This document shows positions 26,717 to 35,853 of a DNA stretch of 64,000 bases, in pieces. Position numbers and translations under genes: made by a program. The notes under the pieces were generated by a model, which worked only from the letters and a program-made list of their open reading frames with translations, did no database searches and was not told the origin of the DNA. How positions within the stretch are numbered: the first letter of the stretch is position 1; each line of letters begins with the position of its first letter. Source of the DNA: Escherichia phage sutha; the sequence record PV245934.1; one strand, 5' to 3'.

Positions 26717-27190
26717 TTATTTGAATGATTTGACGTACTGAATAGAACCTTTACTATTCACGAAAGCGATTTTACCATTCTTATTATACATGGTAGCAGT
26801 ACGCTGATAGCCATAAGTTTGCTTACCAGATTGATAACCAACTAATGCGAAATTATCTTCGCCCATTTTATTCTGTTTAGCGCGAATACGTTCATGACCG
26901 TGTGCCATAAGAACCTTAGCATCGCCAGTTGCAATGGATCTACGAGTTTTTTCATCTTCAACTGTATTAACAAAGTCGTCAAATGAATCAAATTTAGCGT
27001 GAGATTTATTATACAGTTTTCCATCTACTGCATAATTGTATCCTTGTACATCCATCTCAACTTCTGTACCATCATCCAATACAGCAGTGATTTTCTGTCC
27101 TTTTTTAAATTTCAAAAGATCAGTAAAAGATTCAGCAATAATTTGAGAATTAATAGCTGCTTCAGTAATAAATTCTTGATATGTTTTCAT
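26717..27190 (-). CDS. head internal protein with capsid targeting sequence (ipIII-like position)
   Basis: N-terminal MKTYQEFITEAA, the T4 internal-protein capsid-targeting leader; second gene downstream of e. Confidence 0.6.
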   Translation of the reverse strand: MKTYQEFITEAAINSQIIAESFTDLLKFKKGQKITAVLDDGTEVEMDVQGYNYAVDGKLYNKSHAKFDSFDDFVNTVEDEKTRRSIATGDAKVLMAHGHERIRAKQNKMGEDNFALVGYQSGKQTYGYQRTATMYNKNGKIAFVNSKGSIQYVKSFK

Positions 27191-27205
27191 GTGTATCCTT
27201 TAATT

Positions 27206-27523
27206 TTATTCTTTAGGGAAGTTTTTAGAATATGCATCATAAAGCTTATTTCCAATACGGCGGAAAACTTTAGCCGCAAAACGATTTTCTGGGTTTTTAA
27301 TCATGATTTGCATCATATAAGTACCCGCGTCAGAAAGAGCTTCTTCATAGTACCCGTTAATTTCTTTAAGAGTCCTACGTTTACCACCAGGACCATCAAC
27401 AGTGATTTTCCATTTACCCGTAGAAGTGCGACTTGGCGGCTCAATTTGTTCAATCCAGATATAACCACCTTCTACACGTTGTCCTGCAGCAGATTCTGCA
27501 ATAAATTCTTTATAGGTTTTCAT
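27206..27523 (-). CDS. head internal protein with capsid targeting sequence (ipII-like position)
   Basis: N-terminal MKTYKEFIAESA leader; early promoter upstream. Confidence 0.6.
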   Translation of the reverse strand: MKTYKEFIAESAAGQRVEGGYIWIEQIEPPSRTSTGKWKITVDGPGGKRRTLKEINGYYEEALSDAGTYMMQIMIKNPENRFAAKVFRRIGNKLYDAYSKNFPKE

Positions 27524-31051: not shown

Positions 31052-31582
31052 TTATATCATGCTATTTAAGAGATGTAAACTATTTTTAATTTTACAAATT
31101 CGTTCAGCTTCTTCAACAGCGGCGGCGATAATGCTTTTAGCTATAGGAGTACTAATACTAGTAGCTTTTACACTTAACACGATTTCTTTATCTTTACCAG
31201 GCCAACCCCACGATTTTTCACCGTGAGTGCCTTTAATTACAGCAGACACCTCAAGTGAGCATCCATTATCATATGTTTTTACATTGACAACCCAAGGTTC
31301 ACTTTTCTCAATCGGTTTCTCAATCGGTTTATCCCAGTAAATATTAAGAATACGTGGGACATCAAATTTGGCAGGACAAATCTTAACTGTAAGACCTTCG
31401 CTTTCTAGCCAATTAATAAGAGGGCGTTCATACAGGAGACGATGTGGGCTTGGGATTCGACAAGCCTTATGTCCGTTGCTTGCGGCTTCACTAAGCTGTT
31501 CTAATACCTGCTTTTGCATTATTGATAAGATACCATCAAAAGATTTTTCGGAAGTTTCATTCAGTTCGGTATAAAGAGACAT
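31052..31582 (-). CDS. hypothetical protein
   Basis: 176-aa ORF. Confidence 0.45.
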   Translation of the reverse strand: MSLYTELNETSEKSFDGILSIMQKQVLEQLSEAASNGHKACRIPSPHRLLYERPLINWLESEGLTVKICPAKFDVPRILNIYWDKPIEKPIEKSEPWVVNVKTYDNGCSLEVSAVIKGTHGEKSWGWPGKDKEIVLSVKATSISTPIAKSIIAAAVEEAERICKIKNSLHLLNSMI

Positions 31583-31637
31583 AACAGTTTCCTCAAATTA
31601 TAGGCTCATAATATCTCAATCATGAGCCTATGTAAAC

Positions 31638-31901
31638 TTATTTCATATTATTAAAATATTCTTCTGCGATTTCGTCGTTATCATGGTAAACTTTAGAAGA
31701 CAGTTTAACATAACCTTCAGCAGTGAACATGTTAATCACAACCTTTACAGTATACCACTGACCATCTTCATTACCCATTACTGCGTAAGTTTCAAACATC
31801 GGATGATCAGGACCGATAACTTTAATATCATTCACTGTACGACCGAAATCTTCTGAAACGCATTTCATAAAGAAGTTGAACAGTTCGCCGTAATTATCCA
31901 T
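31638..31901 (-). CDS. hypothetical protein (start trimmed to MDNYGELF; track N-terminus overlaps an early promoter)
   Basis: Internal ATG preceded by GGAG Shine-Dalgarno; longer track ORF reads through the promoter. Confidence 0.45.
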   Translation of the reverse strand: MDNYGELFNFFMKCVSEDFGRTVNDIKVIGPDHPMFETYAVMGNEDGQWYTVKVVINMFTAEGYVKLSSKVYHDNDEIAEEYFNNMK

Positions 31902-31945: not shown

Positions 31946-31975
31946 ATAGTACCATGGAAGAACGGGGATGTAAAC
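31946..31975 (-). promoter_or_regulatory. early promoter
   Basis: GTTTAC, 18 nt, TACTAT in conserved block. Confidence 0.5.
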
Positions 31976-32108: not shown

Positions 32109-32139
32109 CAAAAAGCCCCAACCTTTCGGTCGGGGCTAA
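32109..32139 (-). terminator. rho-independent terminator, copy A of 30-bp direct repeat
   Basis: GC hairpin (ccccaacc/ggtcgggg region) followed by U-run on minus strand; identical copy at 32666..32696. Confidence 0.55.
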
Positions 32140-32143
32140 AATG

Positions 32144-32617
32144 TTATTTGATTTGTTTAGCAGACCAAATGCGGTCTTTAATAATTTTTTGGATGTCTTC
32201 AACATACTCTAGGTCATGAGCATGTGGGTTGTCTTTGAAACTATAAGCACGGGCTAACTTTTGGCCTTCGGTTTTGATTACTAAAAGCTCTTTAAGGATA
32301 GCTTCATATTTAGCGATAATTCCTTTAACAATATTTTTTTCTTGTGCAGCTTTAGGATCTGCTTTAGGAGCAGGTTTACCGGAAGGTTTTTCGAAAGCCG
32401 CACCAGTAGCAACCAGGCTTTTCCAGGCGGTGGTAACATAGTTACCCACAAAGCCTTCAGCTCTCATATCGTCGTAGAACTTGTACCGGGATTCATCAGA
32501 AGCATCTTTATAAGAATATTTACCAGCTTTAATAGCAGCAGTTGCTACAGCGCGAACATCTGAAGCGGATGCTTCATTTAACGCCACTTCATTTAAAAAT
32601 TGAGCATATGATTTCAT
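32144..32617 (-). CDS. head internal protein-like, with capsid targeting sequence
   Basis: N-terminal MKSYAQFLNEVA leader; TATAAATA late promoter about 40 nt upstream; flanked by identical terminator repeats. Confidence 0.6.
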   Translation of the reverse strand: MKSYAQFLNEVALNEASASDVRAVATAAIKAGKYSYKDASDESRYKFYDDMRAEGFVGNYVTTAWKSLVATGAAFEKPSGKPAPKADPKAAQEKNIVKGIIAKYEAILKELLVIKTEGQKLARAYSFKDNPHAHDLEYVEDIQKIIKDRIWSAKQIK

Positions 32618-32656
32618 CTTATTTCCTGTTTTAATTCGTGATTTAATATACTACTA

Positions 32657-32664
32657 TATTTATA
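32657..32664 (-). promoter_or_regulatory. late promoter (TATAAATA) upstream of CTS internal-protein gene
   Basis: tatttata on plus about 40 nt upstream of start at 32617. Confidence 0.5.
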
Positions 32665-32665
32665 C

Positions 32666-32696
32666 CAAAAAGCCCCAACCTTTCGGTCGGGGCTAA
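32666..32696 (-). terminator. rho-independent terminator, copy B of 30-bp direct repeat
   Basis: Identical to copy A. Confidence 0.55.
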
Positions 32697-32745
32697 GCCT
32701 TGCGGCAACCTTGTCGGGGTTCCACCTGCTAAGGCAAGTGTTTGT

Positions 32746-32837
32746 ACGAAACGCCGGGATTCGAACCCGGTTATTAAGCAGTTGACGCTACTCAATATTT
32801 TTAAAAGGCCATATCTCGACCATATCCGAACGTTCCG
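32746..32837 (-). ncRNA. tRNA-like structured RNA (possible stable small RNA or degenerate tRNA)
   Basis: T-arm-like CCGGG-TTCGAAT-CCCGG with pairable acceptor ends; no clean anticodon arm. Confidence 0.3.
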
Positions 32838-32978
32838 TCAAAAACGCTACTCGGCTTACGGCAAAGATATTTCCTCGAATCGATAATTCGGTGCGCCGTT
32901 TCAGCTGTGATAGTAAAGAACCAGAACACAGTAAAACTGTGGGAGGAACTATACTCCAGGGAACATCAGTCCGACGAC

Positions 32979-33533
32979 TTACCGGTAGCGACCCGGTTTC
33001 TCATTTGGTATTTCAAATTGTGTAGATTTAGTATCTAATTTTTTAACTATGGAACTTATGTCATGAAAGAAAAACCATTCACTATTTATATGGTCCTGAT
33101 TATAAATGCTGTGCATATATTTTTCAAGTTCTACTGCATCCTGGGAATATCTAAATGATACTATTTTAAAACTTTTAAACGGTGAAAATGTATTTGCTGT
33201 TATAACTCTAACATCAGGTTCTATACTTCTTCCTATTTTATAATAATTAGGATTTGTAGTATCTACCATTATGTATACGAAAGCCTGTCGATAGCTTTTT
33301 TCTATATCAAATTCATCTTTAAATTTCAAAAGATTTAGGGCGGCAGTCCTACAAAATACTTTCCATTTTGACAAGCGTTTGGCTTTAGTCATAGAAAAGA
33401 ATTTTTTCTTATCTGTTATTTTAAGAAAAGCAACATTTTCAATTAGTTCTTGTGTTATTTCAAAATTACCATGGTATATTAATCCAGCTTTTATAGCCAA
33501 ATTAATTTGGTCCCAGTCTACATCACTTCTCAT
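32979..33533 (-). CDS. hypothetical protein inside the tRNA region (weak GIY-YIG/T5orf172-like motif)
   Basis: 184 aa; NYYKIGRS motif mid-protein; between tRNA-like RNA and tRNA-Arg. Confidence 0.45.
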   Translation of the reverse strand: MRSDVDWDQINLAIKAGLIYHGNFEITQELIENVAFLKITDKKKFFSMTKAKRLSKWKVFCRTAALNLLKFKDEFDIEKSYRQAFVYIMVDTTNPNYYKIGRSIEPDVRVITANTFSPFKSFKIVSFRYSQDAVELEKYMHSIYNQDHINSEWFFFHDISSIVKKLDTKSTQFEIPNEKPGRYR

Positions 33534-35462: not shown

Positions 35463-35481
35463 TTTATTCTCCTCAGTAGTT

Positions 35482-35520
35482 GATAGGGTAATAATATCAC
35501 TACCCTATCTAAAAGTAAAC
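35482..35520 (-). promoter_or_regulatory. early promoter embedded in 9-bp perfect inverted repeat
   Basis: gatagggta ataatatcac taccctatc, then GTTTAC -35. Confidence 0.5.
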
Positions 35521-35793
35521 TCATTTTAAATAAATTGCGTATTTTTTATAGCCACCAGGCTCGTGTCGAAGACCCTTATCATTAGCAAAACGCTCAATGT
35601 TGTTAATTTGATTCTGGTCAAGTTCAGAGATGTCAAACACGAAATAGTTACGTTTGTTACCAACTGTTACATAGTCAGTTAAATCAATACCATATAGGTA
35701 ATTGATGTTATCAATCATAGTCTTGACAGCTTTGCTAATTTTTACTTCTTCATTAAGAGCAGATTCAACGATAAACTCTTTAAATGTTTTCAT
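35521..35793 (-). CDS. head internal protein with capsid targeting sequence (ipI-locus position)
   Basis: N-terminal MKTFKEFIVESA leader; immediately downstream of 57B; palindromic early promoter upstream. Confidence 0.6.
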   Translation of the reverse strand: MKTFKEFIVESALNEEVKISKAVKTMIDNINYLYGIDLTDYVTVGNKRNYFVFDISELDQNQINNIERFANDKGLRHEPGGYKKYAIYLK

Positions 35794-35813
35794 TTTATTT
35801 TCCTAATTAATTT

Positions 35814-35853
35814 TGATGAGGTAATAGTATCACTACCTCATCAGTATGTAAAC
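35814..35853 (-). promoter_or_regulatory. early promoter embedded in 10-bp perfect inverted repeat
   Basis: tgatgaggta atagtatcac tacctcatca, then GTTTAC -35; upstream of ipI-locus gene. Confidence 0.5.

What the first reader, a model, noticed from the sequence alone, without database searches (positions are those of the whole stretch)
32109..32696. Late-expressed capsid-targeted protein gene flanked by identical 30-bp terminator repeats
The ORF 32144..32617 begins with a capsid-targeting leader (MKSYAQFLNEVA) like T4 internal proteins and has its own TATAAATA late promoter. It is bracketed by two identical direct repeats (aaaaagccccaacctttcggtcggggctaa at ~32110 and ~32667), each a hairpin terminator. 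Internal proteins are injected with the DNA and some counter host restriction, so this may be a modular injected anti-defense cargo. The repeats would allow gain or loss of the gene by recombination.
Basis: seen in the sequence. Interest (0 to 1): 0.55.

Follow-up and report, generated by a model that had tools for sequence, protein, structure and literature searches.

The report
Capsid-targeted protein cassette between terminators
A T4-like phage carries, between two identical copies of one transcription terminator, a late-expressed gene whose product starts with the short leader that sends proteins into the phage head; T2, T4 and T6 lack the gene and keep a single terminator copy, so this is an unannotated but ordinary-looking member of the known class of swappable "internal protein" genes, sitting at a third site.

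Summary
Two identical 30-nt repeats lie at 32110-32139 and 32667-32696. Each is a strong minus-strand intrinsic terminator. They bracket a TATAAATA late promoter, a ribosome-binding site and a 157-aa minus-strand ORF.

The window is a Tequatrovirus. The cassette sits between rnaC (the end of the tRNA operon) and the early promoter of e.8. Other phages carry a second gene (B), both genes (A-R-B), or a third gene (C) there. The homology breakpoints fall inside the repeat.

A, B and C all belong to phrog_2280, annotated "unknown function". All start with an MK(S/T)Y..FL.E leader that keeps the residues known to matter for T4 capsid targeting and gp21 cleavage. A relaxed leader pattern hits only four ORFs in 64 kb: this one and three in the two classical IP loci.

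The gene is under purifying selection, encodes a basic helical protein, has no fold match and is an intragenic mosaic. Packaging, injection and anti-defence activity remain untested.

Verdict: a new member of a known kind, at a third internal-protein locus. Interest is moderate.

The parts
32667..32696 (-). Repeat copy R(right). It is an intrinsic terminator that ends the tRNA/rnaD/rnaC transcription unit and lies immediately upstream of the cassette. It corresponds to the single copy present in T4, T2 and T6.
32657..32664 (-). T4-type late promoter motif TATAAATA, directly abutting the terminator's U-tract.
   Evidence: The motif is conserved in homologous cassettes of G29, WG01, a JS98-like phage and a Klebsiella Jiaodavirus.
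32622..32627 (-). Ribosome-binding site AGGAAA, 4 nt upstream of the ATG.
   Evidence: read from the sequence
32144..32617 (-). ORF157, called cargo A here, a member of phrog_2280. The pro-protein is 157 aa. Its parts are a leader (aa 1-10 or 1-15), an N-terminal three-helix domain (aa 18-75), a basic Pro/Ala/Lys linker (aa 76-88) and a C-terminal helical hairpin (aa 88-154).
32573..32617 (-). Codons 1-15, MKSYAQFLNE|VALNE|A. This is the capsid-targeting-like leader, with two (L)xE sites that fit the gp21 prohead-protease motif.
   Evidence: determinants from PMC9026906
32110..32139 (-). Repeat copy R(left), the cassette's own terminator. It insulates the e.8 early promoter downstream.
32745..32883 (-). 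rnaC homologue, 98.6% identical to T4 rnaC. It is the upstream neighbour and the conserved right flank of the insertion site.
31946..31974 (-). Sigma-70-type early promoter of e.8 (TTTACA-17-TACTAT with TG). It lies in the conserved left flank of the insertion site.
31638..31901 (-). e.8 homologue, the downstream neighbour.
35521..35793 (-). Comparator: a leader-bearing 90-aa ORF in the classical ipI locus (phrog_7673, internal head protein).
26717..27523 (-). Comparators: two leader-bearing ORFs in the classical ipII/ipIII locus. ORF 26717-27190 is phrog_3155 (internal virion protein) and is 70% identical to Klebsiella phage ValerieMcCarty03 gp127, which was found in purified virions by mass spectrometry.

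Best explanation
The region is an insulated, single-gene late transcription unit for a candidate phage internal protein. It is inserted between the terminator of the tRNA/rnaD/rnaC operon and the early promoter of e.8 in a T4-like (Tequatrovirus) genome.

Proposed working:
- Transcription of the tRNA operon stops at the right repeat.
- Late in infection, gp55-directed RNA polymerase starts at TATAAATA and makes a roughly 540-nt mRNA that ends at the left repeat.
- The 157-aa product is carried into the assembling prohead core by its MKSYAQFLNE leader.
- The gp21 protease removes the leader after E10 or E15, leaving a basic helical protein of about 15.7-16.3 kDa (pI about 9.2-9.3).
- That protein is packaged with the DNA and ejected into the next host. 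By analogy with Ip1-3, it most likely blocks a host defence such as a type IV restriction enzyme.

The duplicated terminator, and in other lineages the whole roughly 125-bp block of terminator, late promoter, RBS and leader, is the portable homology at which cassettes are deleted (the T2/T4/T6 state), stacked (A-R-B) or swapped (A versus C).

Shown here: the anatomy, the leader motif, purifying selection, the presence/absence polymorphism and the breakpoints inside the repeat. Inferred: late transcription, packaging, cleavage, injection and anti-defence function.
For: Anatomy:
- Repeat, terminators, promoter and ORF.
- Genomic context taken from the T4 annotation.

Leader:
- The leader pattern hits only 4 ORFs in the window.
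- Critical CTS positions 4, 7, 8 and 10 are conserved (PMC9026906).
- A near-identical leader, MKTYQEFLNE, is on ValerieMcCarty03 gp127, which was detected in virions.

The gene is real:
- omega is 0.1-0.2 against several alleles.
- 511 phage records have a match, 467 of them covering at least 80% of the protein.
- The predicted mature protein has pI 9.2-9.3.

Modularity:
- T4, T2 and T6 are empty with a single R.
- In the junction alignment, the T4 copy equals the left flank of the window's left copy plus the right flank of its right copy.
- B-only (Shfl2), A-R-B (G29, ECML-134 and others) and ORF138-R-C (JS98-like) states exist.
- The middle R of A-R-B has B-type sequence on one side and A-type on the other, so the join lies inside R.
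- The same TC>CT variant of R occurs at either position in different genomes.
- An identical roughly 125-bp 5' block precedes different cargos.

Family and literature:
- A, B and C are all phrog_2280.
- Ip1, Ip2 and Ip3 each inhibit a distinct GmrSD type IV restriction enzyme (PMC12373910).
Against: - No proteomic, transcript or genetic data for any phrog_2280 member were found. All database names are 'hypothetical'.
- The one T4-like virion proteome checked (ValerieMcCarty03) lacks the gene.
- No fold or sequence similarity to Ip1-3 or to any solved or predicted structure.
- The family is conserved across several genera and evolves under purifying selection, unlike a classic arms-race effector. 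A Pro/Ala/Lys-rich basic linker plus coiled-coil could equally suit a DNA-binding or core-scaffold role.
- In most relatives the two R copies differ by 1-2 nt.
- 30 bp is short for T4 homologous recombination. Allele exchange could instead run through the longer conserved e.8 and rnaC flanks.
- Some alleles have the leader FLMTE, which fits the (L/I)xE motif poorly.
Confidence: 0.6

Rival explanations
1. ORF157 is a late structural or accessory protein of the prohead core, or a DNA-condensing internal protein, rather than an anti-defence effector. It would be packaged through the leader, but its role would be in head assembly, DNA packing or ejection.
For: - The model is all-helical, with a long C-terminal helical hairpin and a basic Pro/Ala/Lys linker, and the mature pI is about 9.3.
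- The family is conserved at the same site in Tequatrovirus, Dhakavirus/Mosigvirus-like, Jiaodavirus and Tegunavirus genomes, with omega 0.1-0.2.
Against: - T2, T4, T6, RB6 and RB9 lack the gene and assemble normal heads.
- All three characterised T4 internal proteins turned out to be defence inhibitors (PMC12373910).
- The N-domain shows deep allelic divergence and mosaicism.
Confidence: 0.2
2. The protein is not packaged at all. The N-terminal resemblance would exist because the terminator, late promoter, RBS and first codons travel together as a recombination block, so the 'leader' is hitch-hiking sequence on a late cytoplasmic protein.
For: - The 5' block, including the first 16 codons, is shared between unrelated-looking cargos.
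- The same terminator and late promoter block also drives ORF138, a membrane protein with no leader.
Against: - The leader is retained, with its critical residues, in every phrog_2280 member across genera, even where the surrounding DNA has diverged (MLEYSEFLKE, MKFKEFLAE, MLKFNEFLAE).
- The pattern is otherwise confined to known IP loci.
- In T4 a 10-residue CTS suffices to package foreign proteins (PMC9026906).
Confidence: 0.12
3. The two repeats are simply two copies of a good terminator kept by selection for termination. Gain and loss of the gene would then occur by double crossover in the long conserved e.8 and rnaC flanks during mixed infection, not by recombination between the repeats.
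For: - The flanks are 93-97% identical across hundreds of genomes.
- A compensatory base-pair change in teqdroes (GTCCC...GGGAC) shows selection on the hairpin itself.
- The copies usually differ by 1-2 nt, so there is no strong concerted evolution.
Against: - Flank exchange moves existing alleles but cannot create the empty, A-R-B or C states. In all of these, homology ends inside R or the 5' block.
- The same R variant is found at either position.
- Recombination between stem-loop cassettes was demonstrated experimentally in RB49/phi1 (PMC2839356).
- Both processes probably operate.
Confidence: 0.25

Closest known systems
T4 internal proteins IPI, IPII and IPIII (Ip1-3) and the Ip4-Ip13 set of T-even relatives (Repoila et al. 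1994, EMBO J 13:4181, cited in PMC12373910 and PMC9026906)
   Same: - Small, basic, non-essential proteins.
- An N-terminal MK(T/S)Y.EF(I/L).E leader ending in a gp21 (L/I)xE site.
- Presence or absence varies between close relatives.
- Mature parts are unrelated to one another apart from the leader.
- Genes sit in polymorphic loci with conserved intercistronic blocks.
   Different: - A different protein family: phrog_2280, against phrog_4363, 7857 and 5341 for T4 Ip1-3.
- A different locus: between e.8 and rnaC, not next to 57B or gene e. The 2025 literature speaks of 'two Ip loci'.
- Absent from T2, T4 and T6.
- No virion or functional data.
- Wider conservation across genera.
PeSL cassettes (promoter-early stem-loop) of T4-type phages (Arbiol et al. 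2010, PMC2839356; Comeau et al. 2014, PMC4122927)
   Same: - Short repeated regulatory modules containing an effective terminator hairpin flank accessory ORFs in hyperplastic regions.
- They act as portable homology for insertion, deletion and replacement.
   Different: - The promoter here is a late TATAAATA, not a sigma-70 early promoter.
- The shared block extends into the coding leader.
- Mini-circles were not tested here.
Terminator downstream of rnaC in the T4 tRNA operon
   Same: The right copy is the same sequence at the same place as in T4: 30/30 identical, with the same right flank.
   Different: In this window it is duplicated, and the second copy terminates the inserted gene.

Membership tests
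T4-type internal (capsid-targeted, injected) proteins | N-terminal roughly 10-residue capsid targeting sequence, with an aromatic residue at position 4 and Phe at position 7 | tested here: met
   MKSYAQFLNE has Y4 and F7. The pattern hits 4 ORFs in the window against 0.02 in shuffles. Determinants are from PMC9026906.
T4-type internal (capsid-targeted, injected) proteins | A gp21 prohead-protease site, (L/I)-x-E, at the end of the leader | tested here: met
   L8-N9-E10, and a second L13-N14-E15 followed by Ala. This is motif evidence only; cleavage was not observed.
T4-type internal (capsid-targeted, injected) proteins | Expression late in infection, together with head assembly | tested here: inconclusive
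   TATAAATA lies 39 nt upstream of the ATG, between two terminators, and no sigma-70-like promoter was called there. No transcript data are available.
T4-type internal (capsid-targeted, injected) proteins | Small, basic and dispensable (variable presence among close relatives) | tested here: met
   The mature form is 142-147 aa with pI 9.2-9.3. The gene is absent from T4, T2, T6, RB6 and RB9.
T4-type internal (capsid-targeted, injected) proteins | Physically present, in processed form, in purified virions | not testable with these tools
   No proteome covering a phrog_2280 member was found. ValerieMcCarty03 lacks the gene.
T4-type internal (capsid-targeted, injected) proteins | Ejected into the host with the DNA | not testable with these tools
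   This needs an experiment.
T4-type internal (capsid-targeted, injected) proteins | Sequence or fold homology to a characterised IP family | tested here: not met
   There is no similarity beyond the leader to T4 IPI, IPII or IPIII or to other window IPs, and no fold match. Known IPs are also unrelated to each other, so this is weak evidence against membership.
GmrSD / type IV restriction inhibitors (the function of Ip1-3) | Relieves restriction by a specific GmrSD variant | not testable with these tools
   This rests only on analogy with PMC12373910.
PeSL mobile regulatory cassettes | Strong sigma-70-like early promoter within the repeated unit | tested here: not met
   The repeat itself holds no promoter, and the adjacent promoter is a late TATAAATA.
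PeSL mobile regulatory cassettes | Stable stem-loop that acts as a terminator | tested here: met
   -20.6 and -21.5 kcal/mol with a U-tract. A compensatory pair change in teqdroes preserves the stem.
PeSL mobile regulatory cassettes | Copies flank accessory ORFs, and indels between relatives have their breakpoints in the copies | tested here: met
   Empty, A, B, A-R-B and C states, with homology ending inside R or the 5' block.
PeSL mobile regulatory cassettes | Formation of excised mini-circles | not testable with these tools
   This needs inverse PCR on infected cells.

The most novel reading that the evidence does not exclude
The e.8-rnaC intergenic site is a third internal-protein hotspot of T-even-type phages that has not been recognised. 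It would have been missed because T2, T4 and T6 are all empty there. Its diversified phrog_2280 cargos (A, B, C) would be injected proteins that disable host defences not covered by Ip1-3. The terminator, late promoter and leader block would act as a dedicated shuffling module that lets phages stack or swap such effectors.
Probability: 0.35. Interest if true: 0.55.

Novelty: new member of a known kind. Interest (0 to 1): 0.42.

Why it matters
Ip1, Ip2 and Ip3 of T4 were each recently shown to block a different GmrSD type IV restriction enzyme, and that work speaks of two Ip loci (PMC12373910). The present locus adds a third site and one unannotated protein family, phrog_2280.

- The A form matches 511 database phage records, 467 of them over at least 80% of its length. 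The site's flanks are found in about 730-770 records.
- The B form is present in 165 records.
- Relatives occur in Klebsiella, Yersinia, Serratia, Erwinia and Enterobacter phages.
- All members carry the packaging leader.

T2, T4 and T6 naturally lack the gene, so they are ready-made test strains. Supplying the protein in trans, or knocking the cassette in, and then plating on wild hosts would show whether it is a new injected counter-defence. This bears on host-range prediction for therapeutic T4-like phages.

The locus also gives a clean natural example of terminator-mediated cassette gain, loss and stacking.

Tried and rejected
- Pfam gave no hit for ORF157.
- A PDB profile search gave nothing below E = 0.5.
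- Foldseek against PDB gave no significant match. Against BFVD it found only the protein's own uncharacterised homologues. The AlphaFold model is of moderate quality (pLDDT 72).
- The 1.84-billion-protein profile search found only 12 representatives, all T4-like or spurious repeats. The family is therefore narrow and gives no functional hint.
- Rfam found no RNA family in the cassette.
- The exact-pattern scan of IMG/VR returned only 4 loci, and the e.8-anchored scan returned 10, too few for statistics.
- Counting site states with short junction queries failed, because BLAST pieces on either side of the insertion were joined. I used the evenly sampled table and fetched loci instead.
- I looked for concerted evolution of the two repeat copies. 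It is not general.
- With leaders removed, A, B and C are not significantly similar by BLASTP. All nevertheless match phrog_2280 end to end, so I treat them as remote paralogues.
- Repoila et al. 1994 could not be read. Whether their Ip4-13 set includes this family is inferred only indirectly: the WG01 record labels its ipI-locus genes Ip7 and Ip9 but leaves the A homologue unnamed.
- The virion proteome paper on Klebsiella Jiaodaviruses does not cover this family, because that phage lacks the gene.

Full report
**1. Observation**

The 30-mer AAAAAGCCCCAACCTTTCGGTCGGGGCTAA occurs exactly twice in the window, at 32110-32139 and 32667-32696. No third copy appears even at 3 mismatches, and none appeared in 100 shuffles. 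The repeat extends to 35 nt with one mismatch, and the copies are 557 bp apart.

All genes in this part of the window are on the minus strand. On that strand each copy reads AGCCCCGACC-GAAA-GGUUGGGGCU-UUUU, a 10-bp stem with 7 G-C pairs followed by a U-tract. The folding energies are -20.6 and -21.5 kcal/mol (z = -5.6 and -4.4).

Between the copies, on the minus strand, lie:
- TATAAATA at 32664-32657;
- an AGGAAA ribosome-binding site;
- a 157-codon ORF at 32617-32144 that starts MKSYAQFLNEVALNEA.

The only additions are that the gene and the terminators are on the minus strand.

**2. Where this is**

The window is a Tequatrovirus. The 1.5-kb region matches 772 phage records, and the best match (vB_EcoM-RPN226) is 97.5% identical.

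Using the T4 annotation, the gene order in the direction of transcription is: 57B, an ipI-locus gene, trna.4/.3/.2, ten tRNAs, a T5orf172/GIY-YIG-like ORF, rnaD, rnaC (98.6% identical to T4), right repeat, ORF157, left repeat, early promoter of e.8, e.8, and onward.

The cassette therefore sits between the terminator of the tRNA/stable-RNA operon and the next early promoter.

**3.

T4 has e.8 and rnaC but no ORF157. It carries exactly one copy of the 30-mer. In the junction alignment, the left flank of the T4 copy matches the left flank of the window's left copy, and its right flank matches the right flank of the window's right copy.

T2 (contiguous 130-nt junction) and T6 are also empty, as are RB6, RB9 and ACG-C40.

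I took an evenly spaced sample of the 729 records that hold the site. Among the 36 records that cover both flanks, the spans indicate:
- about 6 empty;
- about 21 with ORF157 alone;
- 4 with another insert of about 690 bp;
- 5 with both.

Some records that matched only the right flank also carry both genes, for example ECML-134. ORF157 matches 511 records, 467 of them over at least 80% of its length.

**4. Other occupants of the site**

*Shfl2.* The arrangement is rnaC, R, a late-promoter-like AATAAATA, a 188-aa ORF starting MKTYAEFLTE (cargo B), a different terminator, then e.8. B is present in 165 records.

*G29, ZN18-like, ECML-134 and others.* The arrangement is rnaC, R, A, R, B, terminator B, e.8. 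The middle R has B-promoter sequence on one side and the 3' end of A on the other. Homology with the A-only and B-only arrangements therefore ends inside R, which is what an unequal crossover in R would produce.

*WG01-like genomes.* A diverged version of the terminator (GGCCCTTCC-GAAA-GGTTGGGCC) again occurs as a direct repeat. Here it brackets A plus a membrane-protein gene, ORF138.

*JS98-like genomes.* The same terminator and TATAAATA block precedes ORF138. A second copy precedes a 205-aa ORF starting MKTYNEFLNESVLNE (cargo C).

*Shared 5' block.* The block comprising terminator, TATAAATA, RBS and the first 16 codons (about 125 bp) is essentially identical in front of cargo C in one genome and cargo A in another. 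The sequences diverge after it.

*Other genera.* A Klebsiella Jiaodavirus and a Yersinia Tegunavirus have relatives downstream of their tRNA genes. The Klebsiella gene also follows a terminator plus TATAAATA.

*Family assignment.* A, B, C and the Klebsiella and Yersinia proteins all match phrog_2280 ("unknown function") end to end, with E-values of 1e-53 to 1e-60. T4 Ip1, Ip2 and Ip3 belong to other PHROGs that are annotated as internal virion proteins.

**5. Is the leader a capsid targeting sequence?**

In T4 the first 10 residues of IPIII (MKTYQEFIAE) suffice for packaging. Positions 4 and 7 matter for targeting, and positions 8 and 10 for processing (PMC9026906).

ORF157 has Y4, F7, L8 and E10, plus a second LNE|A site at residues 13-15.

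A deliberately loose pattern, M[KR][STA][YFW]..[FYL][LIVM].[ED], hits four ORFs in all six frames of the 64-kb window. They are ORF157, two ORFs in the ipII/ipIII locus (26717-27190 and 27206-27523) and one in the ipI locus (35521-35793). Two hundred shuffles gave a mean of 0.02 hits.

The ORF at 26717-27190 is 70% identical to ValerieMcCarty03 gp127, whose leader is MKTYQEFLNE. That protein gave 66 peptide-spectrum matches in purified virions (PMC13119998). A leader of the ...FLNE type is therefore compatible with packaging.

Every phrog_2280 member seen keeps the leader, even where the DNA has diverged: MLEYSEFLKE, MLQYNEFLKE, MKFKEFLAE and MLKFNEFLAE. This argues against mere hitch-hiking of the first codons.

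**6. The protein**

- Pfam gives no hit.
- All database names are "hypothetical".
- The family has only 12 representatives among 1.84 billion clustered proteins.
- The AlphaFold model (pLDDT 72) shows a three-helix N-domain (aa 18-75, pLDDT 80-92), a disordered basic Pro/Ala/Lys linker, and a long C-terminal helical hairpin.
- There is no significant fold match in PDB or BFVD beyond its own homologues, and no PDB sequence match.
- The predicted mature form is 15.7-16.3 kDa with pI 9.2-9.3.

The gene is under purifying selection, with omega about 0.1-0.2, so it is a real gene.

It is also an intragenic mosaic. The N-domain is nearly identical at synonymous sites to a Dhakavirus/Mosigvirus-like allele (dS 0.08) and very far from the common Tequatrovirus allele (dS 1.3-1.6). 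The C-terminal part shows the opposite pattern (dS 0.2 against 1.07).

**7. The repeats in other genomes**

Of about 15 gene-bearing genomes inspected, 4 have identical 22-nt cores, this window among them. The others differ by 1-2 substitutions, mostly in the e.8-proximal copy.

Phage teqdroes has a compensatory pair (GTCCC...GGGAC). This shows selection on the hairpin itself.

The TC>CT variant is found in the right copy in some genomes (RPN226, B1.1) and in the left or middle copy in others (CE1, ECML-134). That suggests occasional exchange between the positions.

Perfect identity is therefore not a general property, and there is no strong concerted evolution.

**8. Interpretation**

The best reading is an insulated, late, single-gene cassette for a capsid-targeted internal protein. 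It lies at a third IP locus that is empty in T2, T4 and T6.

The terminator duplication, and more broadly the terminator, late promoter and leader block, serves as the homology at which cassettes are lost, stacked or exchanged.

Family members occupy the equivalent site in several genera. The empty state of T2, T4 and T6 is therefore most simply a deletion between the two repeat copies. This is an inference.

By analogy with Ip1-3, each of which inhibits a distinct GmrSD type IV restriction enzyme (PMC12373910), an injected anti-defence role is the most likely function. It is untested. A DNA-binding or core-associated role fits the sequence features about as well.

**9. Relation to what is known**

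- Variable, leader-bearing IP genes in polymorphic loci were described for T-even phages in 1994 (Repoila et al.; cited). From my own recollection of that paper, which I could not read here, these genes have conserved flanking blocks.
- Recombination between repeated promoter/terminator cassettes (PeSLs) was shown experimentally in RB49/phi1 (PMC2839356).
- The present element differs from a PeSL in using a late promoter and in extending into the coding leader.
- It differs from the classical IP genes in family and locus.
- The 2025 literature still refers to two Ip loci.
- Annotators who transferred the names Ip7 and Ip9 in WG01 left the ORF157 homologue unnamed.

I therefore rate it a new member of a known kind, with moderate interest.

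Noticed in passing
window 32979-33533 (minus): A 184-aa ORF with T5orf172/MUG113 (GIY-YIG-like, homing-endonuclease-type) domains lies between the rnaD-like RNA and tRNA-Arg. T4 has nothing there; its segB is on the other side of tRNA-Arg. G29 and RB18 have a different 116-aa ORF at this spot. It looks like a second variable insertion point, probably a homing element.
   Followed up: partly
window 31597-31637, 35480-35520, 35813-35853 (minus): A three-copy family of about 41 nt, in which a sigma-70-type early promoter (GTTTAC...17 nt...TATTAT/TACTAT) is embedded in an inverted repeat. The copies precede the gene after e.8, trna.4 and the ipI-locus gene. This resembles the PeSL promoter/stem-loop cassettes described for RB49/phi1.
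   Followed up: no
window 31052-31582 (minus): At the position of T4 e.7 (111 aa) the window has an unrelated-size 176-aa ORF (phrog_6869). Shfl2 and B1.1 have a 58-aa ORF there. This is another polymorphic slot, right next to the cassette.
   Followed up: no
window 26717-27523 (minus): The ipII/ipIII locus holds two leader-bearing ORFs that are not T4 ipII or ipIII. One is 105 aa (phrog_3966, 'unknown function'). The other is 157 aa (phrog_3155, internal virion protein) and is 70% identical to a Klebsiella phage protein found in virions. phrog_3966 is thus another unannotated candidate internal protein.
   Followed up: partly
window 32144-32617: ORF157 is an intragenic recombinant. Codons 17-75 are close to a Dhakavirus/Mosigvirus-like allele (L018; dS 0.08). 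Codons 76-157 are close to the common Tequatrovirus allele (dS 0.2). The other combinations give dS of 1.0-1.6.
   Followed up: yes
L001 (phage G29) 3532-4094: In G29 cargo B is split into 54-aa and 133-aa ORFs by a frameshift, relative to the intact 188-aa gene of Shfl2 and others. This is either decay of one of two stacked paralogues or a sequencing error.
   Followed up: no
L001 4819-4912; window 32745-32883: The rnaC stable RNA is annotated as 'tRNA-Lys(ttt)' in several deposited genomes (G29, G2133, G4507). ARAGORN and Rfam do not call it in the window. There is no Rfam family for T4 rnaC or rnaD.
   Followed up: no
L009 3010-3564, L017 2636-3190: In Dhakavirus/JS98-like phages a 184-aa predicted membrane protein (phrog_2143, no leader) shares the site. 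It is driven by the same terminator plus TATAAATA block, so the block is not exclusive to leader-bearing genes.
   Followed up: partly
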